IMG/VR virus record: IMGVR_UViG_3300047476_002043
Location: 18,024 to 82,023 of that record
From: a virus
DNA length: 64,000 bases
Reading direction: 5' to 3' (one strand)
A program made the translations under genes and the position numbers. Of the stretch, positions 2,853 to 61,223 are shown one piece after another. The notes beneath the pieces are model-generated. The model had not been told where the DNA came from. It saw only the letters and a list, made by a program, of their open reading frames with translations, and did not search any database. The stretch's first letter is position 1; every line of letters begins with the position of its first letter.

Positions 2853-2898
2853 GATAGACTCCTTTTTGAATTAGATGTATACGATGACTGACATCTAT

Positions 2899-9767: not shown

Positions 9768-9796
9768 GTAATGTAGATCTCAAGCTTCACTGAGAT
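9768..9796 (-). promoter_or_regulatory. early-type phage promoter motif
   Basis: ATCTCA-N15-TACATTAC on the minus strand upstream of the dNMP kinase/gyrB cluster. Confidence 0.7.
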
Positions 9797-9860: not shown

Positions 9861-9896
9861 AAGCTACACCAGGGCCGCGAGGCCCTGGTGTAGCTT
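9861..9896. terminator. 16-bp perfect hairpin, GCGA loop
   Basis: AAGCTACACCAGGGCC-GCGA-GGCCCTGGTGTAGCTT. Confidence 0.65.
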
Positions 9897-11305: not shown

Positions 11306-11355
11306 AAGTAATTCCTTTGTAGTTGATCTTTGACAGAAGCAAGCATACAATAGTT

Positions 11356-11970
11356 TTACCCGGCGAACTTGAGCTTCTTAAGGTACATGGCATGTTCTTG
11401 TTTGCTCATCCAGGCCAGATTATCTGGTGTTGGTGGCAGAGTTTTATCGACGACTACAACAATCATGGTTTTCCATGCTGTGGGTTTTGGAAGGAATGCG
11501 AGAGCCACCAATCTAGCCACGGAGACACCATAAGCCTTACCACGAAATGAGTATGTAATTTCCTTTTTATGTCTAAGGAAGCGAGTGGAGTTTGATCTAT
11601 AGACCGCTCCATCTCTAGTTACTCTGATTCCAGGAAATTCGGGAACTTTAACAGCATCCTTAGGGATTCTGTAATCCTCATCATCAACCCAGAGAAGGTT
11701 GGTCAGTTTGCAGTTCATTTCATCGCCATCGCGATGAATCAACCGTGTAGCCCCAGCCGGTTTAGGGTAGAACATTTCTGCAACCAATTCAGCAACGGAT
11801 CTCATCTCGGCCTTCTTTACAGAACCAATGAATCGGTAAAGTTTGACCTTGGCTCGACCTCGACTACTGATGATATCATGTGGCCAGGTTGATGCAGTAT
11901 CGAACACTTGACCAGCTTCGTTAATCGAATCTCGAATGTATCCTAATGATTTCAATGAAGCAACTTTCAT
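11356..11970 (-). CDS. tandem degenerate HNH (HNH_3/NUMOD4-type) protein
   Basis: Two copies of SVAxLVAxxFxPKP...NLxW; the first retains HRDGDEMN. Confidence 0.65.
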   Translation of the reverse strand: MKVASLKSLGYIRDSINEAGQVFDTASTWPHDIISSRGRAKVKLYRFIGSVKKAEMRSVAELVAEMFYPKPAGATRLIHRDGDEMNCKLTNLLWVDDEDYRIPKDAVKVPEFPGIRVTRDGAVYRSNSTRFLRHKKEITYSFRGKAYGVSVARLVALAFLPKPTAWKTMIVVVVDKTLPPTPDNLAWMSKQEHAMYLKKLKFAG

Positions 11971-12035: not shown

Positions 12036-12064
12036 GTAATGTAGATGTAACTTTATTTTGAAAT
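12036..12064 (-). promoter_or_regulatory. early-type phage promoter motif
   Basis: ATTTCA-N15-TACATTAC on the minus strand. Confidence 0.7.
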
Positions 12065-14564: not shown

Positions 14565-14639
14565 GAGAACTCCTGAGGTTGTTGAGTGTGTAAACATAGG
14601 ATGGTTTTACCGCCTCAAGTACAAATGAAACAAAAAAAA

Positions 14640-19678: not shown

Positions 19679-19756
19679 GGAAATCTCCTTATTTTTTTTC
19701 TTGACTTCATCACTTAAGTAATGTATATCTACAAGATCTTCGAGTACAGCATCCAC

Positions 19757-20982: not shown

Positions 20983-21630
20983 ATGCCCGAAGATCCCAAA
21001 ATCCACACCATCAGAGCTGAGGAAGATCCAACATTACCTCCTCCCGACTTAGCTATGCACTACGTCAACACAGTAACCAAAGCCATCTGGCTCTCAGCAG
21101 GCATTGATACTGTTGATGACTGGATCCTGATCGTTCCTGCATCAAGAACAGTTACAGTTGGACCTGGCTTAGTTGGTGGTGGGGCACTGGATGACGATAT
21201 CAGTATATCCATTGCCGATACCGATGTCACTGAGGGTACCTACCGTAACCCGCTCATGACAGTCAACTCAAGAGGTCAGGTTACTGATATCTCTGAAGGG
21301 CTAACTGGTAATGACGTTGTGCGTCGGTTGACGATCGGTATTGATGCTATCACTGATTCAACTTTCGATATACCGGACCTCGTTCGAGTCATCGAAGTTA
21401 GAGTCGTCATCACAACGGCCTACGACAACAATGCTCGTATCTCTGTTGGTAAAGCTTCTAGTCCATCGTGCTATGCAACGGACAACAAGAGCTACCCAGC
21501 TGCGATTGGCACTTATGTCTTTAGGCAGGATGTGTTTAGTGGTCTTGCTGCCGCTCCGCTACGAGTTAGCATCAGTAACAATCCTACGGTTGGTGCTGGT
21601 GAAGTTGTGATCAAATACCTCCTTCCGTAA
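20983..21630 (+). CDS. tail fibre/virion appendage-related protein
   Basis: GPGLVGGGAL..ISI..T.VTEGTY...TVNSRGQVT motif typical of phage fibre proteins. Confidence 0.6.
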   Translation: MPEDPKIHTIRAEEDPTLPPPDLAMHYVNTVTKAIWLSAGIDTVDDWILIVPASRTVTVGPGLVGGGALDDDISISIADTDVTEGTYRNPLMTVNSRGQVTDISEGLTGNDVVRRLTIGIDAITDSTFDIPDLVRVIEVRVVITTAYDNNARISVGKASSPSCYATDNKSYPAAIGTYVFRQDVFSGLAAAPLRVSISNNPTVGAGEVVIKYLLP

Positions 21631-21635
21631 GTTGA

Positions 21636-21676
21636 CGTTCTACTCCTCCCATGATGGGAGGAGTAGAACGCTTTTT
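21636..21676 (+). terminator. intrinsic terminator
   Basis: 16-bp stem followed by CTTTTT. Confidence 0.75.
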
Positions 21677-21724
21677 GATCATCCTATGGAACCATAATAA
21701 TTCACCACCCAAGGGGTAACCTTT

Positions 21725-22210
21725 ATGCCCGATAGTACAGACATCATTGAAAATATCGTCGGTTTCATGACCGCCGATGGTAAGGTGTGGCGACTTCCGA
21801 CTGGAGTGGCTACAACCCTGAAGCAAGTCCTGGCCGTCACGAACGCATCGACAGGTCAGGTTGAATTCGTTACATTGACCAAGACTGATCTTGGCTTAGG
21901 TAATGTGAGCAATGTTGACCAGTTACCAAGAAGTGCTGAATACGAAATGACAACAGCCGGAGTCGCTTACATGGTAGTTCAAGCCGACAACGGGAAGACT
22001 AAAGGCTGTGACACTGGAGTTGTTCTCGACGACCTCTTACCATTCACTCAAATCGTTGTGTTCAATGAAGCTAACGTTGACATCCCGTACACGCTTCCCG
22101 TTGGATACACCCAGAAAGGCGGTAATACGGATTCTAAAATCCGTAAACACACCTACGCCTCTTTCCAATGGATTTCTTCAACAGAGCTCCGCATTGCTTG
22201 CTCACCTTAA
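21725..22210 (+). CDS. fibre-associated virion protein
   Basis: TKTDLGLGNVSN repeat-like motif seen in phage tail fibres. Confidence 0.55.
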   Translation: MPDSTDIIENIVGFMTADGKVWRLPTGVATTLKQVLAVTNASTGQVEFVTLTKTDLGLGNVSNVDQLPRSAEYEMTTAGVAYMVVQADNGKTKGCDTGVVLDDLLPFTQIVVFNEANVDIPYTLPVGYTQKGGNTDSKIRKHTYASFQWISSTELRIACSP

Positions 22211-22232
22211 CAACTAACATGGAGATGTTCTT

Positions 22233-23057
22233 ATGGCACTAGCCTTAGATGTTGTTCAGAACATCTTGCAATGTTCTGTTAACGGTCAGGGTACAGCCAA
22301 CGGCTGGACCTTTAGTTTGCCAGCTGGAGTGCTGGACAATGATCAATTCCAGATTAGTGGAGATTATGTCCAGCCTAAGTCTACTGGGACATTTAGATGT
22401 GCTCATATGGTCGTTAGGATAATGGCTGTTAATGGCGGTACAACGGTTTATGCCAACAGGCTTATAAACGTTGTCGACTTTGGTATGAAGATGACTGCCC
22501 TAGGGCAGGGAATATCCTACAACAGCACCATCTATTCGTCATTCGCTATTAACAACAGCGGACAAAATTCCTACACCATCTCCTTCAATTTCTACATCAA
22601 TGCGACACCATCGATCAACCATGAGTTTGCTATATTTGGTAAGTCCTCTGCGGCCACTTACTACATGTACATATACGTCACTACAACATCAGGCGTTATC
22701 TTGTACTGCAAAACCGGTGCTGGCGCATCTAACACGATGGTTCTAACGAGCACGAACACATGTAGACGTGGACAATGGAATCAGTATTCGATATCCATAC
22801 CAGCTGGATCTTCGGTATTGTGGTCAACTACGCTCAATGGTGTAGTGACTACATCAGGTAGCAATGTGGCATTCCCTAACTTAAACTTTTCAACAGGCTT
22901 AGATTCGTACGGTGGACCATCAGGATCGGGAAACACGATGATCATTTCTGATCTTAAGGTTATTGAGAACTCAACAACAAAGATCGATGAAAAACTCCAA
23001 TCATTGCCGACCAATGCGTCAGCTTTAGGATCACCAACATTCAATCAATCCTCTTAA
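22233..23057 (+). CDS. adhesin-like protein A: conserved N-domain plus LamG/ConA-like domain
   Basis: GQGTANGWTFSLPAG..DNDQFQISGD N-terminus; YTISFNFY, GQWNQY, LNG lectin-like pattern. Confidence 0.6.
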   Translation: MALALDVVQNILQCSVNGQGTANGWTFSLPAGVLDNDQFQISGDYVQPKSTGTFRCAHMVVRIMAVNGGTTVYANRLINVVDFGMKMTALGQGISYNSTIYSSFAINNSGQNSYTISFNFYINATPSINHEFAIFGKSSAATYYMYIYVTTTSGVILYCKTGAGASNTMVLTSTNTCRRGQWNQYSISIPAGSSVLWSTTLNGVVTTSGSNVAFPNLNFSTGLDSYGGPSGSGNTMIISDLKVIENSTTKIDEKLQSLPTNASALGSPTFNQSS

Positions 23058-23072
23058 CCCCAAGGTAACAAG

Positions 23073-23945
23073 ATGGCTATCTATGCGACAGCAGGACAGA
23101 CTATCTTCAACTGCTCAGTTGGTGGACAAGGTACAGCCAACGGCTGGACTTTTACTTTACCTGCTGGAGTTGCAGATAATGACCTTTTTCAAATCAGTGG
23201 TGATTCCGTCCAGTTCAAATCAGCCACAGCTTACTACTGTAGACAATACGCAGTGCGCGTCAACGGCGTTAATGGTGGCAACACGACACTGATTGCGCAA
23301 ACGTTTATCGTTGGCGAGCGTGGGATGCGACCTAACCTAACTAGTGTATCGGGTTTGAGTTATAACTCAGCGATTTACAACAGTCTGGTTAATACTAGCG
23401 CTTCCATGGACTGTACAGTTGAATTTGCGGCCTACATTCCTCCGGCAGGATCTAACTCGCTGTATTCGATCATGGCAAGGGGCACATCGTACCTCAGCAG
23501 TTCATCACCAACAGGAACTTCACACATTCTAGCGCTGATGATCTCCAACGTAGCGACTCCGACCGTAAGTCTATACGCACTCAACACGTCAGGAGCCCTC
23601 CAATCTTTAATTACTGCATCATCTGCATTCGGCCTTACTCGATCGGTGTGGATTAGTGTCAAGATAACGTGGACAGCAGCCGCAGCAACAACAGTCACGC
23701 TTGATATCAACGGTACTCAAGTTGTTGCTGGTACATCTTCATCCTATCACCTCAATTTACAACAGGCAGCTATTGATGGAGGTATGTGGACAGGGTGTTC
23801 CAATGGAGTTGCTAACTCAGGTGCTCCTTTGATGGCAGATTTGGTTATCACTCAAAACAGTTACAACGTCCTCACCGATCCTATGACGTCCCAACACGCC
23901 AACGCCACTCTTGTTGGCACCCCAGTCTTCAACCTACTCAACTAA
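23073..23945 (+). CDS. adhesin-like protein B (paralog)
   Basis: Same N-terminal domain, divergent Ser/Thr-rich beta-sandwich-like C-terminus. Confidence 0.6.
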   Translation: MAIYATAGQTIFNCSVGGQGTANGWTFTLPAGVADNDLFQISGDSVQFKSATAYYCRQYAVRVNGVNGGNTTLIAQTFIVGERGMRPNLTSVSGLSYNSAIYNSLVNTSASMDCTVEFAAYIPPAGSNSLYSIMARGTSYLSSSSPTGTSHILALMISNVATPTVSLYALNTSGALQSLITASSAFGLTRSVWISVKITWTAAAATTVTLDINGTQVVAGTSSSYHLNLQQAAIDGGMWTGCSNGVANSGAPLMADLVITQNSYNVLTDPMTSQHANATLVGTPVFNLLN

Positions 23946-23964
23946 CACAACAAGGATCATCATC

Positions 23965-24840
23965 ATGTCTATCTACGCAACAGCAGGGCAGACTATCTTC
24001 AGCTGCAACGTCGGCGGTCAGGGTACAGCCAACGGCTGGACCTTCACCCTTCCGGCAGGCATCCAGGACAACGATAGCTTCCAGATCAGCGGCGACAACG
24101 TTCAATTCAAGTCAGCCATCACCTACTACTGCAAAACCTACAACATCCGTGTTCAGGGCGTTAACGGTTCCAGCTCCGCGCTCATTCTTCAGCCGATCAC
24201 CATCAAGGAACGTGGCATGAAGTCTAGCGCTGCTACCGGTACTGGCGTTAGCTACAACTCAACCATCTGCAACGGCTGGGTCAACTCCAGCGCTACTGTC
24301 GATACCACAGTCGAATTCGCATTCTACATCCCGACTACAGCAGCGGCGACTGTCGCTTACTGCCTCTGTGCTAGGACATCTGGTACCAACATCACAACAA
24401 CTGTTCCAACACAAGCGACAACAGTTCTCTCGATGCTGCTCGATACGACAACCAGTCCTAACGTAACGCTTTACGTCAGGAACCCCGCCGGTACCTTGAT
24501 CACAACCCACTCAGCCATCTCTTCCTTCGGCTTGGTTCGTGGTAACTGGTACAGCTGCAAAATCACTTGGTCGGCCGCTGCCTCCACTGTCGTTACTCTC
24601 GACATCAATGGCATTCAGTCCAACGCCACTGCCTCTGCCAACAACCACATCGGCGGAGCCACCATCCAGACTGACGGTATCGTGTATACCGGAAGCGCCA
24701 TCTCTAGCGGTACCAACTACCCGATCATCGCTGACCTTCGCGTCATCCAGGCCGGCTTCGGTGTTATCACTGACCCGATGACCGCACAGCATTCTCAGGC
24801 TACACTTGTGGGTACACCTACCTTCAACCAAGTTAGCTGA
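23965..24840 (+). CDS. adhesin-like protein C (paralog)
   Basis: Same N-terminal domain; start re-picked at MSIYATAG after AAGGA. Confidence 0.6.
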   Translation: MSIYATAGQTIFSCNVGGQGTANGWTFTLPAGIQDNDSFQISGDNVQFKSAITYYCKTYNIRVQGVNGSSSALILQPITIKERGMKSSAATGTGVSYNSTICNGWVNSSATVDTTVEFAFYIPTTAAATVAYCLCARTSGTNITTTVPTQATTVLSMLLDTTTSPNVTLYVRNPAGTLITTHSAISSFGLVRGNWYSCKITWSAAASTVVTLDINGIQSNATASANNHIGGATIQTDGIVYTGSAISSGTNYPIIADLRVIQAGFGVITDPMTAQHSQATLVGTPTFNQVS

Positions 24841-24856
24841 TAGGGCTGATTAAGTA

Positions 24857-26893
24857 ATGCGTACGGCCATCTCAACTGCGATGATTAGCAGCTTCGCGGC
24901 TTCGGTGGCCGTGTTGTCTGTAACCTTCGCTGATGAAGATATACTCCTCAATAACTTCAGTGAAACTACTCCTGCGGTTATTGGGGTAACCTTCGTCGAT
25001 AACGATGTTCTTAGAGACAATATGGTCGATGAGGTTATGCCTATATCGACCAACTTCGTCGACCCAGATATCTTGTTGAAGGATGTTGATGAAGAGCCCT
25101 TTTACGGGAGTACCGCATTTGTTGATAGTGAAATCTTGCGCACCGATATGCAAGATATCACCAATCCAATAAACGCTTATTTCGCGGATGGAGACATCCT
25201 AGCAAGAAACCTTTCTGAAGCATACCCAGGAACAATAACTGCGGTAGAAACGGATAGTGATGTCTTGCTGAATAACTGGAACGAAACCATCCTCACGGGA
25301 TCAACATCTTTTACCGATAGCGATATCCTTTTAACGGGACTCACCGCTTCGTACCCAGCTCTAATATCGGCAGTCATTGTCGATGCCGACATCTTACTCG
25401 CGAACATGTCCGATGGCGTCGCCACGATCGTCACATCGTTCGCCGATAACGACATCCTTTTACGAAGCCTAGCTGAGGCCCCAAGTTACGGAAGCGCATC
25501 AATAGCCGATAGTGACATTCTCAGCAAAAACTTAACTGAAAGCTACAGCACAGCCATAAGTGCTTCGTTTGCTGATAGTGATGTTTTGTTGAGAGTGCTT
25601 AATGAAGGTCCCGCCTCCGGATCGGCCTCTGTAGTTGATAGTGATGTGATGCGCGCGGCGCTTTCCGAGAGCTACCCAACATCAGTCTCGACTAGCTTCC
25701 CGGATACAGACATCCTGCTCGTTGTTCGCGCAGAAGCCCCAACATCGGGATCCACGAACATACCAGATACGGATATCCTTCTGATCAATATGCCCTCCGG
25801 GCCGACGATTGGAAGTACCAACATCCCAGACTCGGATATGCTGCTTAACCAAGTTACAGCAGGCCCTTCGATCGGTAGCACCACGATACCTGATAGCGAC
25901 ATTCTTCTCAAATCTCTCACTGCCAACGGCGGCACAACCATCACCACATCCTTCCCAGATAGTGATATCCTTAGAAGGAGTCTTGCAGCTGAGCCTACCA
26001 TGGGTAGCACAACCATACCCGATAGTGACATACTACTCAGATCCTTGGTTGAACTCCCACTTACCGGTAGCACCACGATTCCAGACACAGACATCCTCAA
26101 AGCTAACCTTGTTGAAAATGGTGGCGTAGCCATCTCTACAACATTCGCCGATGCGGATATCCTCAATCGAAATCTCACCGCTGGTCCGACAATCGGATCG
26201 ACTACAATCCCTGATAGCGACATCCTTGTTGCTAACAACACGGCGACCTACCCAGGTGTTGTTACAACCTCGATTCCCGATGCGGATATACTCCTCAATA
26301 ACCGAACAGCCGGACCAACTAACGGTTCGACATCTATTCCGGATAGCGATATCTTGCTTAGATCTCTTACCGCTTCTGGAGGCACACTCGTCACTGCTAC
26401 GTTCGCTGATGCTGATGTTCTCCTTAGGTCGCTCACAGCCTCCGGTGGTACCCTCATTACAGCCACATTCGCGGATGCCGACATCTTGCGCATGTCCCTT
26501 GCTGAATACTACCCGACACCCGGTTCGACTTCGTTTGCTGATAGTGATGTCTTGCTCAAAGATATGCCTGCGACAACAGTTCTCGCCGGTAGTGCAAACT
26601 ACCCCGATTCTGACATTGAAAGACTCAACCTTACAGGTTCCGCTGGTAACGGTGGGTTGGCAACATTCCCTGACTCCGACATCGAAAGACGTAATCTCAC
26701 CGGCTCTGCTGGCAATGGCGGTCTCGCTACCTTCCCGGATAACGATATCGAGAGAAGGAACCTTACAGGTTCCGCTGGTAACGGTGGGTTGGCTACCTTC
26801 CCCGACAGTGATATCGAACTTAAAGTCGCTACTGCTCCTGCCTACCAGGCAACGATCACCGACCTTGATTCGGTCTACACTATCAACACATAA
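24857..26893 (+). CDS. repeat protein made of 31 tandem 21/22-aa DxD-IL repeats
   Basis: (F/I)(P/A)DxDIL recurs along almost the whole 678 aa. Confidence 0.8.
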   Translation: MRTAISTAMISSFAASVAVLSVTFADEDILLNNFSETTPAVIGVTFVDNDVLRDNMVDEVMPISTNFVDPDILLKDVDEEPFYGSTAFVDSEILRTDMQDITNPINAYFADGDILARNLSEAYPGTITAVETDSDVLLNNWNETILTGSTSFTDSDILLTGLTASYPALISAVIVDADILLANMSDGVATIVTSFADNDILLRSLAEAPSYGSASIADSDILSKNLTESYSTAISASFADSDVLLRVLNEGPASGSASVVDSDVMRAALSESYPTSVSTSFPDTDILLVVRAEAPTSGSTNIPDTDILLINMPSGPTIGSTNIPDSDMLLNQVTAGPSIGSTTIPDSDILLKSLTANGGTTITTSFPDSDILRRSLAAEPTMGSTTIPDSDILLRSLVELPLTGSTTIPDTDILKANLVENGGVAISTTFADADILNRNLTAGPTIGSTTIPDSDILVANNTATYPGVVTTSIPDADILLNNRTAGPTNGSTSIPDSDILLRSLTASGGTLVTATFADADVLLRSLTASGGTLITATFADADILRMSLAEYYPTPGSTSFADSDVLLKDMPATTVLAGSANYPDSDIERLNLTGSAGNGGLATFPDSDIERRNLTGSAGNGGLATFPDNDIERRNLTGSAGNGGLATFPDSDIELKVATAPAYQATITDLDSVYTINT

Positions 26894-26905
26894 GGAACCT
26901 GCACA

Positions 26906-27250
26906 ATGTTACCCAACGAAAGAATGTACAAGGTCACGTTCAAGGATGGAACGGTTAATAACGTTCCGTTCGAGATCCCGCCTGAACCGAGTGATGCAAC
27001 TGGTATCGTTTCAGTCGTTCTGAAAGATCCGACGCCAACTACCGATGTTGTACAAGTTAGCGCCAGTTTCTGGCGCAGCTTACCCGATGAAATCAGAGGA
27101 GCGTTCTTGGTTTATCGATCATCGATAACTCAGGCTCTCGAAGAAGGCGATTATGTCGCCGCTAGACTCTGTATAGGCAACGTTACGGTACCTCCAGAAT
27201 TGGAAGCCGTTAAACAACAGTTGCTTGATTTGATACCAACAGGGCCTTGA
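26906..27250 (+). CDS. hypothetical protein, possible fibre assembly chaperone
   Basis: 114 aa, last gene before a strong hairpin; function inferred from position only. Confidence 0.55.
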   Translation: MLPNERMYKVTFKDGTVNNVPFEIPPEPSDATGIVSVVLKDPTPTTDVVQVSASFWRSLPDEIRGAFLVYRSSITQALEEGDYVAARLCIGNVTVPPELEAVKQQLLDLIPTGP

Positions 27251-27253
27251 TCC

Positions 27254-27285
27254 ACCATCCCATCTCCAAAAGGAGATGGGATGGT
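27254..27285. terminator. 14-bp perfect hairpin
   Basis: ACCATCCCATCTCC-AAAA-GGAGATGGGATGGT. Confidence 0.65.
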
Positions 27286-27327
27286 TATTCTATGCCGTCA
27301 TAAAAAACAACAAAAGGAACCAAAATC

Positions 27328-27858
27328 ATGCGATCGTTCTTAATCCTCCTCATTACACTCATCCTTACCTCGTGTGGTATGGTTGGGTTCGAAAACAAAT
27401 CCGCCGTTGCTGCCAGAGAACATACGGCACCTATCAACGATGGTGAGTACGACAATATCACTTCAACCGAAGGTAAGGTTGTCATTCGTCGGACAACCTC
27501 CTATCGTGCATTGATCAAAGCCGATACTCATGTGGACACCAAGCAACAAGGTGTTGATGCATCGAGTAAAGTTGATGTCAATCTTGCGGTTAGTAAGTAC
27601 CTCGGGACCATCTTCACTGGAGGAGCTGGTTCGGCTATGATGGCCCTCGATGCTTTGGTTGCTAAGCCTAGCGATGCACTTACTTCGGAGGAAGCTCTGG
27701 CTCTTGCCGTTTCTGCCAATAAGAAAAACGGCGGGGTTCAGCCTGGTAAGGAGGAGATCCTTGCTGCTGTTGAAAAGTATTTACCATCGGCTTCTACGGA
27801 TAAAGCTAAAGAAGCAGCCATGGCGCTTATCAACGACTTGAAATCCAAAAAGGAATAA
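27328..27858 (+). CDS. lipoprotein
   Basis: Signal peptide with lipobox LTSC. Confidence 0.7.
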   Translation: MRSFLILLITLILTSCGMVGFENKSAVAAREHTAPINDGEYDNITSTEGKVVIRRTTSYRALIKADTHVDTKQQGVDASSKVDVNLAVSKYLGTIFTGGAGSAMMALDALVAKPSDALTSEEALALAVSANKKNGGVQPGKEEILAAVEKYLPSASTDKAKEAAMALINDLKSKKE

Positions 27859-28125: not shown

Positions 28126-28161
28126 ACCCTACCAAGCTACCTTGCGGTAGCTTGGTAGGGT
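28126..28161. terminator. hairpin between convergent genes
   Basis: 16-bp perfect stem, TTGC/GCAA loop. Confidence 0.7.
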
Positions 28162-30171: not shown

Positions 30172-30749
30172 GTCTATTATCTTATGCGTCAAAACCGCTT
30201 AAGTGATACTCTGGATAGTTGGCCCAGACTTCGCGGACATAAAGAACAACGAGGATCTATTCATGCACTGCATGGATTATCTTGACACGGAGCCTAAGAC
30301 TCTCCGGCAACAAAAGGTCTACTCCAACACAACTGATAGCGATGCAAAGACACAAACACTTTTCTTGGTAGCCATCACGGCGAATTACCAACGGACCTGT
30401 TAGCAATCATCGCTTTAGCTCTCCTGATGTTATCAGGAAGCATCGTCGCTATCCTTATGTGTTGAATCCTGCCGTCATCTACAGGTAACTGTTGGGCATG
30501 ATGATGGTGTGCCAAAATGACTAGATTGAAGTCACCTAACTTCGTCTAGCTAGCTCTGTCGTACTCGGGTCTTTCCTAGACCTCACTTGAGCCGAATCAA
30601 AATAGGCTCAAGTAGAAACTCATTCTGACGTACGCAGATCTACTCTTTCATCAGGAATAAGAGAGAAGAAATTGACGAATGAGTATATGTGTTGGTGTAA
30701 TAGAAAACTTGCGGTGATGAAACCAACGTAAACCGCACCCTTTCAAGGA

Positions 30750-30825
30750 TCCACGATAGCTCAGTTGGTAGAGCTCGGTGCTGTTAACACCGCTGTCCTA
30801 GGTTCGAGTCCTAGTCGTGGAGCCA
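30750..30825 (+). tRNA. tRNA-Asn(GUU) with CCA
   Basis: Full cloverleaf; CGGTG-CTGTTAA-CACCG anticodon arm. Confidence 0.95.
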
Positions 30826-30831
30826 GATCAT

Positions 30832-30870
30832 GCCCTCTTAGCTCAGATGGTAGAGCAGCTGTTTTTGTGA
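30832..30870 (+). pseudogene. 5'-half tRNA remnant (probably tRNA-Thr UGU)
   Basis: GCCCTCT TA GCTC AGATGGTA GAGC A GCTGT..TTGT, then no 3' anticodon strand or T arm. Confidence 0.65.
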
Positions 30871-30874
30871 TTAA

Positions 30875-30962
30875 GCCAGCTTCCGTTAGTGGTCGAGACG
30901 ACAGGACTTGTAACCCTGCGAGGGATACCTCCGCGTGAGTTCGAATCTCACAGCTGGCTCCA
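30875..30962 (+). tRNA. tRNA-Thr(UGU) with long variable arm (88 nt, CCA)
   Basis: GCCAGCT/AGCTGGC, CAGGA-CTTGTAA-CCCTG, V-arm GAGG-GATA-CCTC, GTGAG-TTCGAAT-CTCAC. Confidence 0.85.
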
Positions 30963-34992: not shown

Positions 34993-35219
34993 TTTGGTTT
35001 ACCATAATAAGCGAGAAGAATCTTGCTGATGAGCTAATCCCTTGTCGAGCTGCTTCATAAGATGCAGAATCAAATAGGGCAACCTAGTACTAGAAGTAGT
35101 GCGAAGTCTATCCGACTCAAGATGAGCTGGATAGTGACATCAGATACATTGCTGGTAACCAGGATATCGTCCTTAAGGACTGATCCTACTTCCTGACTGA
35201 GAAAAAACTTAAGTCTGAT

Positions 35220-35268
35220 AACCACCACCTGCTACCTTGCGGTAGCAGGTGGTGGTTGTTTTTTTTTT
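35220..35268 (+). terminator. intrinsic terminator
   Basis: 17-bp stem, TTGC loop, T run. Confidence 0.8.
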
Positions 35269-50004: not shown

Positions 50005-50033
50005 GTAATGTAGATCTGAAGAAATGATCAGAT
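50005..50033 (-). promoter_or_regulatory. early-type phage promoter motif
   Basis: ATCTGA-N15-TACATTAC upstream of denV. Confidence 0.65.
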
Positions 50034-51249: not shown

Positions 51250-51419
51250 TCGTAGCTTCCTCCTGTTGCTGTTGGCGTTTCATTTTCTGCGTCCATGTTT
51301 CTTTCTCATGGCGCATGATCTCAAGAGCCGCGTGGCTATCACTTAGAAGTTTTTGGTCCATTTTTTGTGTAAGGGGGTTAAGTTGAAGATGAAGGCCGGA
51401 TTACTCCAACCACCAGGAT

Positions 51420-52010
51420 TCATTGGCTCATTTGAGCTACGTCAGCTAGATAATCCATGCCGTCCTTCCATTGGTTCCTATAGAAACCATCCAGGCTACG
51501 CATACCCTGGGGAACAACGATGTAGCCTTCAGTTTCAAAGAACCTTTCAACTAGTCGAGCATTTTGCTCAGCCAGCTGGGAATTTTTGAAGGTCATGGAA
51601 ATCGATGCGAGCATTAGACCATTAGCGGCCTTGATGCACAGAACGTTGTCTGTAACAGTAACACTCTTCTCATCTTGTTCTTTGATGAAATCGAGAGCTC
51701 TGTTAAGATCAATATTCGTTATGTGCTTATCAAGACTAGCTTCGTAATCGGCGATCGCCTTAGCTGCTTCTAGCAACCCAGCATTTACATCTTGGCCATG
51801 AGACCAGAGTACGCGGTGGGCTTCTAGAGTGAGCTCATAGCGCTTCAACTTGGACCTGAAGCGTTCGCACGCTTCTTTGTAGAACCCCTTAGAGAGTTCG
51901 GTAAAGTTTTCGTAGATGCCGATATCCTTATCGATACCTACGGCTTTAAGGTCCAAGGAAATAGCAACACTTGTTTCGAACGTAATCATTGTTTTCTCCT
52001 TGAACCTCAT
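51420..52010 (-). CDS. hypothetical protein
   Basis: 196 aa. Confidence 0.65.
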   Translation of the reverse strand: MRFKEKTMITFETSVAISLDLKAVGIDKDIGIYENFTELSKGFYKEACERFRSKLKRYELTLEAHRVLWSHGQDVNAGLLEAAKAIADYEASLDKHITNIDLNRALDFIKEQDEKSVTVTDNVLCIKAANGLMLASISMTFKNSQLAEQNARLVERFFETEGYIVVPQGMRSLDGFYRNQWKDGMDYLADVAQMSQ

Positions 52011-52013
52011 CTC

Positions 52014-52352
52014 TTAGGAGACGCAGACGGTCTCCTCGAGAATCAGTTTTCTTGGTGTGATGGAGCTAAGCTCCTTTTCGAGTTTGGCCGACAGACTTAC
52101 CAACAGTTCAGTCTGCTGGTAATCCTCGTCGTCGCCTTTGCCACCACGATGAGCGTGATAGGCTATTTGGGCCTGGAGAGCCGAATGCTTCGCCTTTTGA
52201 CGGGCGTCGTTCAGCGATGACTCCCAGACCGATCTCGAGGCTTTGCCTTTTATGGCGTCCTCAGCCAGACTGTAGAGATTCCTTTTGGCGTGAGCCGAGA
52301 CAGCCCAGGCGACTTCAGCTACTTCAAGTAGATTCTTCAGATCGCTACTCAT
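52014..52352 (-). CDS. hypothetical protein
   Basis: 112 aa, AAGGAG RBS. Confidence 0.6.
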   Translation of the reverse strand: MSSDLKNLLEVAEVAWAVSAHAKRNLYSLAEDAIKGKASRSVWESSLNDARQKAKHSALQAQIAYHAHRGGKGDDEDYQQTELLVSLSAKLEKELSSITPRKLILEETVCVS

Positions 52353-52542
52353 GGCGGGTTCTCCTTATTTGAACATTTTAGGAGCGGTAAGAACGAGAAC
52401 GAAGGCGGCTGCTGCAAGCAGCATGCCGAATGAGATTTTGATGTCGATAGCAACTCGCTTGTTATCTTCAGATTCATTGCTCATGGCGATTCCTCATGGT
52501 TTTAGGGTTAAGACTTAAGCTTTTGATAGCTTATTCACCCAG

Positions 52543-52570
52543 GTAATGTAGATCTATGAGCCAATGAACT
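52543..52570 (-). promoter_or_regulatory. early-type phage promoter motif
   Basis: AGTTCA-N14-TACATTAC. Confidence 0.6.
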
Positions 52571-52606
52571 ACACTTTTTGAATTAATCATTATATACTCG
52601 AAATCA

Positions 52607-52860
52607 CTTGCCTGTACCTCCCAGCTTTTAGCAGCCCTTGTAGATGGGGATAAAGGATAGGCAAGCCACTGGTTAATTCGGCTACCAAGACAGTTCGGTG
52701 TCTAGGTGGTTACAAGGGTTGGCATGTGTGTGCTCTGGAGGTTTGACCGGCGGTAAGTTAGCTGTTTAGGGGTTTTGTGTCCTCGTGGTTTACCCTAGGT
52801 AGTCTAACTTATCCAGGAATTGGTCCTCCTGGATTGCGGGGCCTAAGGTCTAACACCTCC
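52607..52860 (+). ncRNA. candidate structured non-coding RNA with pseudoknot
   Basis: No ORF; nested helices and an 11-bp loop-to-downstream pairing; late-type motif upstream and terminator-like hairpin downstream. Confidence 0.55.
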
Positions 52861-52881
52861 AAAAAGACAACATGAAGCCTA

Positions 52882-52917
52882 GCTCACCCCTCCCGGCTTG
52901 CGCCGGGAGGGGTGAGC
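52882..52917. terminator. 16-bp perfect hairpin
   Basis: GCTCACCCCTCCCGGC-TTGC-GCCGGGAGGGGTGAGC. Confidence 0.7.
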
Positions 52918-52934
52918 CTTGCTCTGTTTGATTG

Positions 52935-53303
52935 TCATTTCTTTCTTTCTAGGCGATCTAGCGCATTCATAATGATTTTAAACCCGTTCCTGGATAGCCC
53001 ATTCTTATTCGAGCAGTTGTATAACCACCCAAGTCCATTGTGATAGATACAGATGTTGTATACCACGGAGTCGTGATCTATTATCTCAATGTGGATATCC
53101 TCAAAATGGAAAACTTTGGCAGTTTGAGTAACCGAGAAGCTGCACTTTCTATGAAAGATCCTGAGGTCGTGCATATCGTTTATTCTCTTGAACAGCATAT
53201 GGCGCTGATCCGGAGATGCGATATTGAAGAATTTGTAAGCTGTGTTCATACAGAAGAACAGAGTCGCAGCGATCATAAGTAGAATGATGTACAACATTGC
53301 CAA
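52935..53303 (-). CDS. membrane-anchored hypothetical protein
   Basis: TTG start after AGGAGG; N-terminal TM. Confidence 0.6.
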   Translation of the reverse strand: MAMLYIILLMIAATLFFCMNTAYKFFNIASPDQRHMLFKRINDMHDLRIFHRKCSFSVTQTAKVFHFEDIHIEIIDHDSVVYNICIYHNGLGWLYNCSNKNGLSRNGFKIIMNALDRLERKK

Positions 53304-53372
53304 TACCTCCTTCCTGTTTATAAGATGACCACCAACCTACGGCCGAAAGGCCGTAGGTTGACGGAGTGTATC

Positions 53373-55451
53373 TTAAGAACCGTAGATGTCACCAAGCAGA
53401 AGCTGACGCTTATCATGGCCAACAGCGATACCCAAGCGCTCAAGTGTTAGGTAAGCGGGCTTGAGGTTACTGAAGATGATGTGTCTAACGTTGATGAGCG
53501 GAATCAGTTCTTCAGGAATAGACCTACAAAGAGAATGTAGGACGATCGCCGAAGGTTGCTTCTTGTCGCCAACATGAGCAAGGTATTTCTTGTAGGCAGA
53601 AGGATTGCGCTCATTGAGCCATTCCAGGTACTGCGGCGTGATCGTGCAGAGCTTGATGAGAGGTACTTTATCAGGAGGATTGATGATTCCGTACTTATCG
53701 CCGAAAACGGCATTCCAAGCATCGCAATAGGCCCAGACTGAACCCTCAGGGTTGTCGTAGTCCTTATCCATCTTGACGGTTTGCTTAGGGAGATAGGTGA
53801 GTTCACCCTTAGCTAAACTCTCTCGGATAGCCTGTTCGAAAGCGATGACTTTATCGATGAGAGCAATACCGCTAATATCCCCTTTTGTAGCTGGGATAAC
53901 GATATCGTTGATGATGAGATCTTCGATGAAGTCCAAACTATCTTCAGCGATAGTTGAACCTTTGAGAACCGCACCTTTGATGTCAGGCTTAGGCTTAGGT
54001 AAGTTGACACCTTCTTGAATCTTGATGAGACCGGCGTATGTCTTTTTGGTATCGTACAGGATCAGCGCAGGATACAAGAACTCGTTCTTCATCCGCATGA
54101 TCTTGGTGTTCTCTTTAGTCGCACCCTGAGCGATGCTGAATTTACTCATGGCATCATCGTTGGCTTTGGTGAGCCAGTAGGTGACAAGAGCCGAGATGCT
54201 GAAGTGTGGAACATCGATGTTGTTAAGGTGACCAACGAACCACTCTGCCCAGTCCTTTGAGGTAAAGATAACCGAGTCAGTGTCAGAGATGATGACGGTA
54301 TTCCTAATCATCGCTTTGCGAGTAAGGATGTTGGGCGTCATGATGTTGTGGTAGATGAACGTTTCGAACAGATCATCCAGGAACCGGAGTTTTTTGTCCA
54401 TAGACTTGGCTGTCTGGACACAAAGTCTTGCGAGATTCGGATGCTTGTCGACCAGTTCACTATGTTTGGTGTCGGCCAGTTGAGGACTAAGGATAGTGTA
54501 GACGATAGGCATCATGTCCCCATCGAACTTATGGATATCCTTAGGGTCGACACTAGGGTCAACTTCAACGATCGGTGTAAGGATATCTTGGATGATGGGG
54601 CGGAAGATTGATTCATTAGCCCAGAAGAGATGGCGCAGGTTGCTGGCGTAGTAGATGAACTGGTGCACATGCCAAGGGAGGCTTCTGATGTACTGAGCGA
54701 GCATTCCAAAGTTATCACGTCGTTTGTATTGCATGACTGTTTTGGTCATGTAGTCGACAACATCTTCTGCCGAGACAGCTCTGATGTTATACTTGGTAAT
54801 GGCGTTCTGGATGGTCTCATGTGGTGGACCAAGGCGATTGCAAAGAATAGCCCAGTTGAGAGCTTCGGTGACATTGAACCAGGCGAAGTTACCACCGAGT
54901 GTATTCTCAGCTGTAGTGTAAGAGTGCGCGATCATCGCTCGAGCGCTTGAGGTGATCGAGTTGTAGCCGGCTTTGCAGTAGAAGACGTTGTACGCAGAGC
55001 CGTATCCACCAGGGAGTGAGTTTAGGCGAACCTTAACTGTAGTCTGTGCACACTTGTACTTGCGGACCATCATCTTCTCGCCAGACTCTTCAGCGGCGAA
55101 TTGTTTCTTCTTCAGAGTCTTCCGTTCGAGAAGACCTTCTTTGGTCATAGTTGAAAGGAACGCTTCTTCAACGTGAGCTGGCTTGTAGACTGTACCACTA
55201 GGAGTAATGATGTCTTTGTTGTACTTTTGAAGATAATTACCGAGGTTGCTTGATACAACTTTGGCAACCCCATCTCTAGGGTTTTCAACGCAGGTGATGG
55301 CAGGATTTTTGAGACGGGTCATTTGTGATTCGATGTATGCCATAGCCTCTTCGGGCGAGCATTTGGTGGATGCAGTCAACAGGCTAAGCATGTTGTTTTT
55401 GTAGGACGCTAGAAGCTGTGGGCGGACAACTTCGTCTGCAACTCTTTCCAT
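53373..55451 (-). CDS. divergent family B DNA polymerase (phiKZ-type polymerase-domain subunit)
   Basis: KVRLNSLPGGYG (motif B), SITSSAR, IISDTDS (motif C), KNEF, KKTYA, IKG. Confidence 0.85.
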   Translation of the reverse strand: MERVADEVVRPQLLASYKNNMLSLLTASTKCSPEEAMAYIESQMTRLKNPAITCVENPRDGVAKVVSSNLGNYLQKYNKDIITPSGTVYKPAHVEEAFLSTMTKEGLLERKTLKKKQFAAEESGEKMMVRKYKCAQTTVKVRLNSLPGGYGSAYNVFYCKAGYNSITSSARAMIAHSYTTAENTLGGNFAWFNVTEALNWAILCNRLGPPHETIQNAITKYNIRAVSAEDVVDYMTKTVMQYKRRDNFGMLAQYIRSLPWHVHQFIYYASNLRHLFWANESIFRPIIQDILTPIVEVDPSVDPKDIHKFDGDMMPIVYTILSPQLADTKHSELVDKHPNLARLCVQTAKSMDKKLRFLDDLFETFIYHNIMTPNILTRKAMIRNTVIISDTDSVIFTSKDWAEWFVGHLNNIDVPHFSISALVTYWLTKANDDAMSKFSIAQGATKENTKIMRMKNEFLYPALILYDTKKTYAGLIKIQEGVNLPKPKPDIKGAVLKGSTIAEDSLDFIEDLIINDIVIPATKGDISGIALIDKVIAFEQAIRESLAKGELTYLPKQTVKMDKDYDNPEGSVWAYCDAWNAVFGDKYGIINPPDKVPLIKLCTITPQYLEWLNERNPSAYKKYLAHVGDKKQPSAIVLHSLCRSIPEELIPLINVRHIIFSNLKPAYLTLERLGIAVGHDKRQLLLGDIYGS

Positions 55452-58455: not shown

Positions 58456-58868
58456 AGCATTACTTTAGGAACTACGACGAACTTAGAAATGATTTGGACA
58501 AGACATCTGGCTTCGATAGGTACTACCTGTTCTGTCACCAATACGAAGCCATTTTCTATCCTAACAAAATCGCTCCCATAGCTAGTACCTACAGGTATGG
58601 TTACAAGATCGACACTGATGAGATAAATAGCCCGTTTTACCACCGGGTCATGAACCTCTGTCTTAAGCCGATCAATCGTGACCCTATGGGAGGTGATAGG
58701 TTCTTGGTTAACATCCTAGGACTTACGCCGAACGATATCTTTAAGTTCGACTTCGCCAGTTTCATAGATCTTGAAGACCGGATCGTAGCTCTTGAAAACA
58801 GCTACAGAGATGAACTTGCCGAGAAAGCAAACTCGGCGGCTAAACTGAAACAGGAAATATCTAAATGA
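58392..58868 (+). CDS. -1 frame extension of the upstream protein (probable frameshift product)
   Basis: Overlaps in the -1 frame across T TTT TTT (58410-58416); no convincing start or RBS of its own. Confidence 0.55.
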   Translation: MGPLYSFFYAFRNQDSQKDQVKHYFRNYDELRNDLDKTSGFDRYYLFCHQYEAIFYPNKIAPIASTYRYGYKIDTDEINSPFYHRVMNLCLKPINRDPMGGDRFLVNILGLTPNDIFKFDFASFIDLEDRIVALENSYRDELAEKANSAAKLKQEISK

Positions 58869-60751
58869 CAAAAAACGACAATGAACGACCGGGCGCCATG
58901 ATCCTGGATGCTTACGAAGGCAAAACCAACATCATCGAAGACAAGAATATCGATGACACAATGATCAAAACCTTCGAGTTCATGCTCAACCTCCTCAGTG
59001 ACTATTGTGGTCCTTATGGCAAGTATGCCATCTTGGCTGCAACTCCTGGATCGGGCCTGGAACCAACGTTCACCAAGGACGGTATCAACATCGTCCGTTC
59101 AATCGAGTTCGTCAATCTGATGCAGCGTCATGTCAAGGACATGATCACCTACATCGGTTCCTGCGTTGAGCGTTCGGCTGGTGATGGTACAACATCCTCG
59201 ATGATCGTTGTCACGAAAGTCCTCCTTGAGATCCGTAAGTATCTCAGCGAGGTCGATGACCAGAAGAAATATCTGAATCATATCACCTATACCCAGTTCC
59301 GCTCTGAGTACGAGGCTTTCGTAGCTCGTGTCGTCGAAAAAATGAACGCTTACGCCATCAAGGTCACGAAGGAAACTCCCAAAGACAAGATCGCGGCCTT
59401 GGCTTATCACCAAGCCATGACCTCATCCCACGGAGACAAAGTACTTGCTGAGATGGTCAGTCAGTTCTTCAGTAGCATTTCACCCGAAGCGTGGAAGAAC
59501 ATCCACTACCGTCGAGAAACGCACGAGTCAGCTGCTCTCTACAGCTTCGAAACGAAAGATTGCGACTTCATGTCGAGTCGAGCTTCGGTCTTCAGCGGTA
59601 ACATGCTGAATGCTGAACAGGGAACAGAATACGTCATGGAGGGTGGTAAATTGGTTGTCTGTCCGACAGCTCTCATTTCCAACTCGCCCAACTGGCCTAT
59701 CCTTAAGAACCTGATCAAGGAAGCCATCGACAGTAAAGACAAACTCACTGTCATTGCCGGGTCGGCTTACGACTCAACCATCCAGCAGCAGTTTGAAGAG
59801 ATGTTCCATCAGGCCACAGAAGGCCACAATGTAGCGATCTTCACTCTCGATGCTACCGGCAACCCACTGACACAACACTTGACAGCCCTTGGTGCTATCC
59901 TCGGCTACAATGTTGCGAATTACCAAAAGCTAATCACTGTCGACAACGTGGATGTTAAGTTCAAACGGCGTAGACTGATGCTTAGTGGTATCGCTACCTA
60001 CGACGCGGATTGTCAGATCGTAGGACACGCTGACGAGAAGATCATCATCGGTGCGTACCTCAAAGATTTGTCGGCGTTCATCGAACGCCGCACCAAAGAA
60101 AAAGATGATCCGTACATCGCCAAAGAGCTCTCTGTTGCCACTGAGCTTTACAACCATGTCAAGTTCCGCAACCTGAGCACCTTCGTTATCGGCGGTAAGG
60201 CTTACGACCACATCGCTGCTAATGAGGTTGTCCATGATACCTTCACAGCAACTCGTCGCAGTTTGTTGGAAGGTACTGTCTTGGGTAGCTTTGCTACGCT
60301 CAAGCGAGCTCTCTCGGACATCATCAAAGAAGAGCGCAAAGAGAAAAAATCTCTCGCTGCTGTTCTTGCCCATGCCTTCATTTCAGGCATTCAATTCGTC
60401 GAGATGTGCGTTCTCAAATACAGCCCTACCCCGGACCTCAATGAGATTCTGCCTCTCACAGAAACAGAACCTTCTCGTGAATGGATCGCGAGTAAACTCG
60501 AAATCAGTCAATTCCTAACCGCAAGAGAAATGGGACTCTGCGTTTACGATGTTATGACGAATAGCTTCGTCAACTTGGAGATGGCTGAGACTAAGGGCAA
60601 TCATGTGATTGTTCAACCGATTAGCACAGACATCGCCATGATGAATCGCTTCGGTGAAGTGGCTTTAAAATTCCTCTTCGCCAACAGAATCATGGTTCCT
60701 AACAGTGTCGTCGTCAACGATGACCCTAAAAGCAAGGAAGCTAAGAAATGA
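58865..60751 (+). CDS. groEL: GroEL-like chaperonin (divergent)
   Basis: GPYG, TKDG, AGDGTTS, HDTFTATR (GroEL D398 region), EGTVLG; no GGM tail. Confidence 0.85.
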   Translation: MTKNDNERPGAMILDAYEGKTNIIEDKNIDDTMIKTFEFMLNLLSDYCGPYGKYAILAATPGSGLEPTFTKDGINIVRSIEFVNLMQRHVKDMITYIGSCVERSAGDGTTSSMIVVTKVLLEIRKYLSEVDDQKKYLNHITYTQFRSEYEAFVARVVEKMNAYAIKVTKETPKDKIAALAYHQAMTSSHGDKVLAEMVSQFFSSISPEAWKNIHYRRETHESAALYSFETKDCDFMSSRASVFSGNMLNAEQGTEYVMEGGKLVVCPTALISNSPNWPILKNLIKEAIDSKDKLTVIAGSAYDSTIQQQFEEMFHQATEGHNVAIFTLDATGNPLTQHLTALGAILGYNVANYQKLITVDNVDVKFKRRRLMLSGIATYDADCQIVGHADEKIIIGAYLKDLSAFIERRTKEKDDPYIAKELSVATELYNHVKFRNLSTFVIGGKAYDHIAANEVVHDTFTATRRSLLEGTVLGSFATLKRALSDIIKEERKEKKSLAAVLAHAFISGIQFVEMCVLKYSPTPDLNEILPLTETEPSREWIASKLEISQFLTAREMGLCVYDVMTNSFVNLEMAETKGNHVIVQPISTDIAMMNRFGEVALKFLFANRIMVPNSVVVNDDPKSKEAKK

Positions 60752-61185: not shown

Positions 61186-61223
61186 CCCATCACCCATCTC
61201 CCGCAAGGGAGATGGGTGATGGG
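61186..61223. terminator. 17-bp hairpin between convergent genes
   Basis: Perfect stem, GCAA loop. Confidence 0.7.

What the first reader, a model, noticed from the sequence alone, without database searches (positions are those of the whole stretch)
52607..52860. Highly structured ~250-nt ncRNA candidate with a pseudoknot
Seen: P1 CTTGCCTGT/ATAGGCAAG encloses CCCA/TGGG, whose loop CAGCCCTTGTA (52632-52642) pairs with downstream TACAAGGGTTG (52711-52721). A CCAC/GTGG three-way junction carries two TTCG-capped hairpins. A second domain is closed by GGAGGT..GACC/GGTC..ACCTCC and contains AGTTAG/CTAACT, TAGGG/CCCTA and ATCCAGGA/TCCTGGAT. G-U pairs favour the plus strand. A late-type motif lies 10 nt upstream and a long hairpin lies downstream. 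Inference: an independent phage ncRNA (ribozyme, packaging RNA or protein sponge) that I cannot assign to a known family.
Basis: partly seen in the sequence, partly recalled or inferred. Interest (0 to 1): 0.7.

Follow-up and report, generated by a model that had tools for sequence, protein, structure and literature searches.

The report
Orphan non-coding unit in jumbo phage
A 450-base gene-free gap in an uncultured freshwater jumbo phage looks like a small stand-alone gene for an untranslated RNA, with its own promoter-like motif and a terminator hairpin, but the detailed fold proposed for it, pseudoknot included, is no better than chance and no relatives were found to test it.

Summary
The statistics are weak. 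Whole-region MFE z is -1.72 (12 of 200 shuffles fold as well). A helix as good as the pseudoknot occurs in 137 of 1000 shuffles. Domain 2's z of -2.29 is matched by 74 of 512 windows sampled across the window.

The better support is the layout. No ORF in the gap exceeds 32 aa. A promoter-like motif, YATYNTATR, ends 9 nt before the first helix. That motif is enriched between genes (10 observed, 2.5 expected) and depleted inside them (1 observed, 14 expected). A 16-bp hairpin of the phage's usual between-gene type lies 21 nt after the last helix.

There is no Rfam match. No homolog was found in any collection reachable here, so covariation could not be tested. No RNA data were available.

Verdict: a plausible orphan ncRNA gene of about 320 nt on the plus strand (about 45%). 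The specific fold and any ribozyme, packaging or sponge role are unsupported. Interest is modest.

The parts
52543..52553 (-). Motif A (ATCTACATTAC). A promoter-like site for the next minus-strand genes, starting with the 39-aa ORF at 52484. It lies back to back with motif B and marks the left boundary of the unit.
   Evidence: 6 copies with at most 1 mismatch in the window against 0.93 expected. All are on the minus strand. Most lie 34-74 nt before minus-strand starts.
52587..52597 (+). Motif B (TCATTATATAC, matching YATYNTATR). An orphan promoter-like site with no ORF behind it.
   Evidence: 12 of 13 copies in the 82-kb record are non-coding. Between genes: 10 observed against 2.5 expected (1/300 shuffles). 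In genes: 1 observed against 14.1 expected (0/100). Other copies lie 24-55 nt before start codons.
52598..52930 (+). Predicted untranslated transcript of about 320 nt. Both ends are inferred, not measured.
   Evidence: Start inferred from gene-linked motif-B copies whose Shine-Dalgarno sequence begins 6-17 nt after TATA. End inferred from the hairpin. No ORF over 32 aa and stops in all six frames.
52607..52721 (+). Domain 1.
   Evidence: z is -1.56 on plus (14/200) and 0.06 on minus.
52632..52642 (+). 5' strand of the proposed pseudoknot. It pairs with 52711-52721.
   Evidence: Inverted repeat I2, 11 nt, 91% complementary. Duplex energy -15.8 kcal/mol. A helix this good occurs in 137/1000 shuffles.
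52711..52721 (+). 3' strand of the proposed pseudoknot.
   Evidence: As above.
52737..52860 (+). Domain 2. A closed multi-branch fold of GGAGGU/ACCUCC, GACC/GGUC, a long imperfect hairpin (52752-71 with 52793-813) and the hairpin 52811-18/52827-34.
   Evidence: MFE -47.5 and the centroid equals the MFE. z is -2.29 on plus (2/200) and -3.83 on minus (0/200). It is not an outlier against the window's background.
52882..52917 (.). Perfect 16-bp GC-rich hairpin with a 4-nt loop. A likely two-way terminator shared with the convergent polymerase/ORF122 genes, which end at 52935.
   Evidence: z is -7.56 on plus and -9.56 on minus. It is one of 38 perfect hairpins in the record, 33 of them mostly non-coding. 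A strain in run X5 changes only the four loop letters 52898-52901. The generic terminator scan did not flag it.

Best explanation
The gap holds a small stand-alone gene for an untranslated RNA on the plus strand.

Inferred sequence of events: a phage RNA polymerase starts at or just after the motif-B site (52587-52597). It transcribes about 320 nt that fold into two domains (52607-52721 and 52737-52860). It stops at the 16-bp hairpin (52882-52917), which also ends the convergent polymerase/ORF122 genes.

The RNA most likely acts in trans through its folded shape, by binding a protein, rather than by long antisense pairing.

Shown here: the absence of coding capacity, the motif and its genome-wide behaviour, the hairpin, and the presence of the helices.

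Inferred only: transcription, the two ends, the fold and the function. The pseudoknot and the three-way junction are not supported.
For: 1. Non-coding. The longest ORF in the gap is 32 aa and stops occur in all six frames. The record is about 90% coding by my crude gene calls.
2. Promoter-like motif. YATYNTATR has 13 copies in the 82-kb record and 12 are non-coding. Between genes it is 10 observed against 2.5 expected (1/300 shuffles). In genes it is 1 observed against 14.1 expected (0/100). Selection therefore appears to remove stray copies. The other TATA-type copies lie 24-55 nt before start codons. The copy at 52587-52597 has no ORF behind it and ends 9 nt before P1.
3. Divergent promoter layout. 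Motif A at 52543-52553 points the other way.
4. Terminator-type hairpin 21 nt after the last helix. It belongs to the phage's standard between-gene hairpins (33 of 38 mostly non-coding). Its stem is kept in a strain whose loop differs.
5. The two folded domains fill the space between motif and hairpin. Domain 2 has a well-defined fold in which the centroid equals the MFE.
6. The phage carries phiKZ-type split RNA polymerase genes (phrog_2962, phrog_3233) and the divergent family B polymerase PF20286. Intergenic sRNAs have been mapped in giant phages of that kind (PMC11512511, passages read).
7. Weak hint. Two other studies' contigs match only 52627-52777 and 52647-52800, with 1 and 0 differences.
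Against: - No transcript evidence of any kind.
- No homolog was found, so there is no covariation. Single-sequence models found nothing in 74 polymerase-anchored or other fetched loci, in 5 whole relatives or in a 44%-identity relative's contig. In that relative the polymerase is followed by an unrelated 211-aa ORF.
- Fold statistics are ordinary: whole-region z -1.72, and 74 of 512 background windows reach domain 2's plus-strand z.
- Domain 2's core helices are all Watson-Crick and score better against shuffles on the minus strand. Structure alone does not choose the strand.
- The hairpin lacks a canonical U-run on either side, and the terminator scan did not flag it.
- The total count of motif B equals the shuffle expectation (11 against 12.9). 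Only its placement is unusual.
- No complement of 14 nt or more to the RNA exists elsewhere in the 82 kb. That leaves no target. The record is also only 31% complete.
Confidence: 0.45

Rival explanations
1. Non-functional spacer or decayed gene remnant. The stretch lies between the terminator of one minus-strand operon and the promoter of the next. The motif-B copy is a leftover or cryptic promoter, and the helices are what a G+U-rich 250-nt stretch gives by chance.
For: Fold statistics are at background level. No homolog was found in any collection. Gene order around the polymerase is not kept in relatives. The genome has other gaps of about 400 nt.
Against: Motif B is strongly purged where it is not used (1 against 14 expected in genes), so an idle copy would be unexpected. 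No trace of an ORF remains in any frame. The record is about 90% coding, and long idle gaps are unusual in a phage (established knowledge). Run X5 shows no difference across 52485-52881, although it shows none in the flanking genes 51400-52484 either.
Confidence: 0.3
2. The functional strand is the minus strand, or the element acts as DNA. One version is a structured read-through or 3'-UTR segment of the polymerase/ORF122 transcript. The other is a protein-binding, replication or recombination site next to the replication genes.
For: Domain 2 scores best on the minus strand (z -3.83, 0/200). Its core helices contain no G-U pair. The hairpin has no U-run directly after the stem on the minus strand, so read-through is conceivable. 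The DNA polymerase gene is 500 nt away.
Against: Domain 1 has no minus-strand fold beyond chance (z 0.06). No direct-repeat iterons were found, only short imperfect repeats. The plus-strand motif B would be left unexplained. GC skew follows gene direction and does not turn here.
Confidence: 0.15
3. A very small protein gene, such as the 10-codon ATG ORF at 52644 or the 32-codon GTG ORF at 52777-52875, is the real product.
For: ORFs of 10 and 32 codons exist downstream of motif B. AGGGG lies 4 nt before the GTG.
Against: Genes in this record use strong AAGGAG/GGAGG sites and mostly ATG starts. Neither small ORF has such a site. The 32-aa product has no evident character and lies inside the most stable helices.
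Confidence: 0.03

Closest known systems
Intergenic sRNAs of giant phiKZ-like phages (201phi2-1, phiKZ), mapped by ONT-cappable-seq
   Same: A short transcription unit in which a start site is followed closely by a terminator, set between genes of a jumbo phage that has its own multi-subunit RNA polymerases. Function is unknown there too. PMC11512511 reports 11 sRNAs, 3 of them intergenic (passages read).
   Different: Those were defined from RNA data and filtered to under 250 bp. This one is about 320 nt and is defined from sequence only. The polymerase of this phage is at most about 27% identical to those of cultured phages.
phi29-type packaging RNA (pRNA)
   Same: A phage-encoded structured RNA of a few hundred nt or less, with loop-loop pairing (recalled knowledge).
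   Different: No Rfam match at E up to 10. pRNA belongs to small phi29-like phages with a terminal-protein genome (recalled), whereas this is a phiKZ-like jumbo phage. Nothing here links the RNA to packaging.
Large ornate phage-associated RNAs (GOLLD, ROOL)
   Same: Structured non-coding RNAs found in phages and prophages, with unknown function (abstract of 10.1101/2024.12.08.627333 seen in the listing).
   Different: No Rfam match. Those RNAs are about twice as long or more and often lie beside tRNA genes (recalled). This one lies 22 kb from the tRNA cluster.
Four ncRNAs annotated in jumbo phage PA5oct
   Same: Jumbo-phage ncRNAs called from combined genome and RNA-seq data (abstract only).
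   Different: PA5oct is not phiKZ-like.

Membership tests
Any Rfam 15 family (4227 models, including ribozymes, riboswitches, tmRNA, RNase P, 6S and the phage RNAs held there) | Covariance-model score at or above the family's gathering threshold | tested here: not met
   Whole window: only three tRNAs reach threshold. Region 52400-53000 at E up to 10: five chance-level hits of 16.3 bits or less, mostly on the terminator hairpin.
tRNA / tmRNA | Cloverleaf, or a tRNA-like domain with a tag reading frame | tested here: not met
   ARAGORN finds three tRNAs elsewhere and nothing in 52485-52934.
Group I or group II intron | Interrupts a host gene so that flanking exons join into one frame, and matches an intron model | tested here: not met
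   No Rfam intron hit. The flanking ORFs on both sides are complete minus-strand genes with their own stops and starts. Whether Rfam's models cover all intron subtypes was not tested.
Giant-phage intergenic sRNA (as a kind, not a sequence family) | A mapped transcription start followed by a mapped termination site with no coding sequence between them | tested here: inconclusive
   Sequence-level stand-ins are present: motif B, the hairpin and no ORF. No RNA data exist for this phage.
Giant-phage intergenic sRNA (as a kind) | Detectable, discrete transcript during infection | not testable with these tools
   The phage is uncultured, and the run search returned DNA-type rows only.
Structured RNA family in the comparative sense | Homologs with compensatory base changes in the proposed helices | not testable with these tools
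phi29-type pRNA | Match to the pRNA model, and a phi29-like genome context | tested here: not met
   No match. The context is a phiKZ-like jumbo phage. That Rfam holds a pRNA model is recalled and was not checked in a call.

The most novel reading that the evidence does not exclude
This is the first member of a new class of folded RNA, about 320 nt long, made by phiKZ-like jumbo phages from their own promoter. Its core (about 52627-52800) would be held nearly letter-perfect across freshwater and sludge samples whose surrounding DNA was not recovered. That pattern would point to a very strongly constrained, or very abundant, RNA that works as a protein-binding scaffold or decoy during infection.
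Probability: 0.12. Interest if true: 0.65.

Novelty: new member of a known kind. Interest (0 to 1): 0.3.

Why it matters
Few non-coding RNAs of jumbo phages have been mapped and none has a known role, going by the passages read in PMC11512511 and PMC8244752. A stand-alone structured RNA made by the phage's own polymerase would be a useful handle on RNA-level control in these phages. As it stands the case rests on one sequence. Its practical value is a defined, testable candidate with predicted ends. A second product is a two-motif promoter grammar plus hairpin punctuation that can be used to annotate this divergent phage lineage.

Tried and rejected
Homolog searches that found nothing:
- blastn of the gap against 50,697 phage records.
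- nhmmer of the gap against 74 fetched loci.
- tblastn of nine neighbouring proteins against those loci: no hit for any neighbour.
- Single-sequence covariance models R1 (domain 2) and R2 (domain 1) against the window plus 74 loci. Only the source itself scored, plus chance hits of 15.7 bits or less.
- The same models against 5 whole IMG/VR relatives, 4 of them at least 90% complete.
- The same models against the 13 loci from the word scans and against the own record, which holds a single copy.
- The same models with filters off against L091, the JGI contig of the 44%-identity polymerase P0005.

Exact-word scans:
- IMG/VR gave 1, 9 and 4 hits. All lie inside coding genes of unrelated contig families, as checked by alignment or by reading the context.
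- JGI metagenomes gave 0 hits.
- GTDB genomes gave 0 hits.

Protein-anchored searches:
- The polymerase alone in IMG/VR returned one 25%-identity locus.
- ORF122 and the 196-aa neighbour in IMG/VR returned none.
- P0004 in GTDB genomes returned none.

Other dead ends:
- The scan's earlier notes hold no look-alike stretches.
- No RNA holder is listed for this stretch. This says nothing about expression.
- Parts of the laid stretch without cover in runs X3, X6 and X7 are not interpreted.
- A complement scan for an antisense target found one 13-mer, which is the chance level.
- The repeat scan found no iteron-like array.
- I looked at a second motif-B copy at 35056-35064(-) as a possible further orphan unit and dropped it. 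The stretch behind it holds small ORFs on both strands.
- I rejected the ribozyme, riboswitch, tmRNA, intron and pRNA readings because no model matched and the context does not fit.

Supplements are closed. The candidate lists of PMC10690425 (structured RNAs in viruses and phages, abstract only) and the sRNA tables of PMC11512511 could not be checked and may bear on novelty.

Full report
SETTING

The window is bases 18024-82023 of an 82,023-bp IMG/VR virus record that CheckV rates 31% complete. Runs that hold it are labelled freshwater, aquatic and freshwater-sediment metagenomes.

The record is a distant phiKZ-like jumbo phage:
- The 692-aa ORF at 53373-55451(-) is a divergent family B DNA polymerase (PF20286, E 6e-101; phrog_2927).
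- Two ORFs match phage RNA polymerase beta-subunit families: phrog_2962 at 12109-13545 and phrog_3233 at 2175-2852.
- A divergent chaperonin follows at 58865-60751.
- The polymerase is at most about 27% identical to those of cultured phages. It is at most 48% identical to anything in the large protein collection, apart from a fragment of the same phage.

THE LOCUS

The finding lies in a gap of about 450 nt (52485-52934) between two minus-strand genes.
- Upstream in their direction is a 120-122-aa ORF (52935-53303). It has an N-terminal hydrophobic helix and its own motif-B site.
- Downstream is a 39-aa ORF (52365-52484) with a C-terminal hydrophobic stretch.
- Neither ORF matches Pfam or PHROGs.
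- No ORF in the gap exceeds 32 aa, and all six frames carry stops.

CHECK OF THE OBSERVATION

Three details are weaker than described:
- The 'TTCG-capped' hairpins have 10-nt and 6-nt loops, not closed tetraloops.
- RNAfold replaces the three-way junction with one bipartite hairpin.

Against chance:

| Measure | Result |
|---|---|
| Whole region, plus strand | z -1.72 (12/200 shuffles as good) |
| Whole region, minus strand | z -1.57 (10/200) |
| Domain 1, plus / minus | z -1.56 / 0.06 |
| Domain 2, plus / minus | z -2.29 (2/200) / -3.83 (0/200) |
| 512 background windows of 124 nt | mean z -0.86, sd 1.53; 74 reach -2.29, 29 reach -3.83 |
| Helices with at least 8 Watson-Crick pairs | 4 observed, 1.39 in shuffles; 44/1000 reach 4 |
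| Best single helix (the pseudoknot) | matched in 137/1000 shuffles |

The background windows used 30 shuffles each, so those z values are noisy. Even so, domain 2 is not an outlier in this genome, which is rich in hairpins. The sequence is foldable, but 'highly structured' and 'pseudoknot' are not shown.

WHAT FRAMES THE STRETCH

I made crude gene calls (105 ORFs, about 90% coding) and read the upstream regions. Two recurring motifs emerged.

Motif A is ATCTACATTAC.
- It has 6 copies in the window with at most one mismatch, against 0.93 expected. All are on the minus strand.
- Most lie 34-74 nt before minus-strand starts.
- The genes behind it include an endonuclease V-like gene, an HNH endonuclease and a dNMP kinase.
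- One copy lies in the gap at 52543-52553(-), pointing at the 39-aa ORF.

Motif B is YATYNTATR, in its best form GTCATCTTATA.
- It has 13 copies in the 82-kb record, 12 of them outside genes.
- With region-wise dinucleotide shuffles it is enriched between genes (10 against 2.5, 1/300) and depleted within them (1 against 14.1, 0/100).
- Its total count equals expectation (11 against 12.9). The signal is in where it lies.
- Two of the copies are start-codon contexts (11344-52 and 14595-603).
- Most of the other copies lie 24-55 nt before start codons.
- In two gene-linked copies the Shine-Dalgarno sequence begins 6-17 nt after the TATA. Transcripts must therefore start at or just after the motif.
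- The copy at 52587-52597(+) has no ORF behind it and ends 9 nt before helix P1.
- Its temporal class is open. Besides the repeat-protein cluster at 20983-27858, it precedes an RNA polymerase subunit gene, ORF122, the head of the chaperonin operon and the stretch before the tRNAs.
- The resemblance of motifs A and B to phiKZ early (TATATTAC-like) and late (TATG) promoters is recalled and was not tested.

THE HAIRPIN

At 52882-52917 there is a perfect 16-bp stem with a 4-nt loop (z -7.6 on plus, -9.6 on minus).
- The record holds 38 perfect hairpins with stems of 9 bp or more. 33 of them are mostly non-coding, typically between a gene end and the next promoter motif.
- The tails on both sides of this one resemble tails of other copies. 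It is probably a two-way terminator shared with the convergent polymerase/ORF122 genes.
- The generic scan did not flag it, because no U-run directly follows the stem.
- In run X5 a 3.8-kb contig matches 51400-53103 with only four differences. All four are in the loop letters 52898-52901, and the stem is untouched.

READING

The layout is: divergent promoters (A to the left, B to the right), 9 nt, domain 1, 15 nt, domain 2, 21 nt, hairpin. This is what a small independent gene looks like, and it cannot code for protein. That is my best explanation at about 45%.

The mode of action is inference only. No complement of 14 nt or more exists elsewhere in the available 82 kb, which weakly favours a shape-dependent, protein-binding role over antisense pairing. 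However, 69% of the genome and the entire host are unseen.

The RNA carries several CCUCC-type strings, and the closing helix of domain 2 is GGAGGU/ACCUCC. I note this without drawing a conclusion.

COMPARATIVE EVIDENCE

None could be obtained.
- No Rfam family matches, and ARAGORN finds nothing here.
- The sequence searches, the single-sequence covariance models and the exact-word scans all failed.
- Gene order next to the polymerase is not kept, either in the 73 IMG/VR relatives or in the 44%-identity JGI contig, where an unrelated 211-aa ORF follows.
- A single-sequence model has limited reach, so absence in relatives at 30-44% polymerase identity is weak evidence.

AN UNEXPLAINED HINT

Two runs from other studies, one labelled sludge and one unlabelled, hold only short contigs.
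- The contigs are 151 nt at 52627-52777 (one difference) and 154 nt at 52647-52800 (no difference, word depth 5.8).
- The runs were found with words from 52400-53400. That both fragments fall inside the predicted transcript and overlap by 131 nt has, by my own rough estimate, a chance of about 5%.
- Possible explanations: a core conserved in otherwise different genomes; libraries that contain RNA (their kind is only guessed); or low-coverage luck.
- I could not pursue this further because both tools were at their cap.

LITERATURE

- PMC11512511 (passages read) reports 67 promoters, 132 terminators and 11 sRNAs in 201phi2-1. Three of the sRNAs are intergenic, and one 5'-UTR sRNA is conserved across giant phages.
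- PMC8244752 (passages read) predicted one 75-nt phiKZ sRNA that a northern blot did not confirm.
- PMC7318152, PMC10690425 and 10.1101/2024.12.08.627333 were seen as listing and abstract only.
- My searches found no paper describing an RNA like this one. They were keyword searches, and the supplements were closed.

VERDICT

The interpretation as an independent ncRNA is plausible on gene-layout grounds, not on structural grounds. The candidate is an orphan in every collection I could search. I file it as a new, unverified member of the known kind 'jumbo-phage intergenic ncRNA', with interest 0.3.

Noticed in passing
window 52543-52553(-), 50005-50015(-), 12036-12046(-), 9768-9778(-), 19718-19728(-), 910-920(-); also 6009(-): Motif A (AGATCTACATTAC-like) recurs only on the minus strand, mostly 34-74 nt before genes such as an endonuclease V-like gene, an HNH endonuclease and a dNMP kinase. 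It is probably one promoter class of the phage's own transcription system.
   Followed up: partly
window 2878-2886(-), 20948-56(+), 21680-88(+), 27286-94(+), 30178-86(+), 35056-64(-), 53319-27(-), 56937-45(+): Motif B (YATYNTATR) is almost absent from coding sequence (1 observed, 14 expected) and enriched between genes. The copy at 30178 lies before the non-coding stretch and tRNA cluster at 30467-30962.
   Followed up: partly
whole record; e.g. window 9861-9896, 21636-21670, 28126-28161, 35220-35257, 61186-61223: The record holds 38 perfect GC-rich hairpins (9-17 bp), 33 of them mostly non-coding, which act as punctuation between operons. Many have GCAA or TTGC tetraloops, and several are followed directly by a motif-B site.
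   Followed up: partly
window 52898-52901: In run X5 the four loop letters of the 16-bp hairpin all differ, while 1.7 kb around them is identical. The new loop is close to, but not exactly, the reverse complement of the old one.
   Followed up: no
window 53058-53207: A second, low-depth contig in run X5 differs at 10 of 150 letters within ORF122, starting near 53091. The sequence to the left is identical to the window, so there appears to be a recombination or mosaic boundary inside ORF122.
   Followed up: no
window 11344-11360(-) and 14595-14611(-): Two genes share the start context GGTAAAAC.AT..TATG, in which the ATG of a motif-B-like string is the start codon itself.
   Followed up: no
window 52935-53303(-) and 52365-52484(-): The genes flanking the gap encode small proteins with one hydrophobic helix each, N-terminal in the 120-aa protein and C-terminal in the 39-aa protein. 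Neither has a family match.
   Followed up: partly
window 52617-52625 and 52902-52910: The 5' part of domain 1 (CCTCCCAGC) is complementary, with one mismatch, to the 3' arm of the terminator hairpin. This could be an alternative pairing, or it could be a by-product of the shared CCUCCC strings.
   Followed up: no
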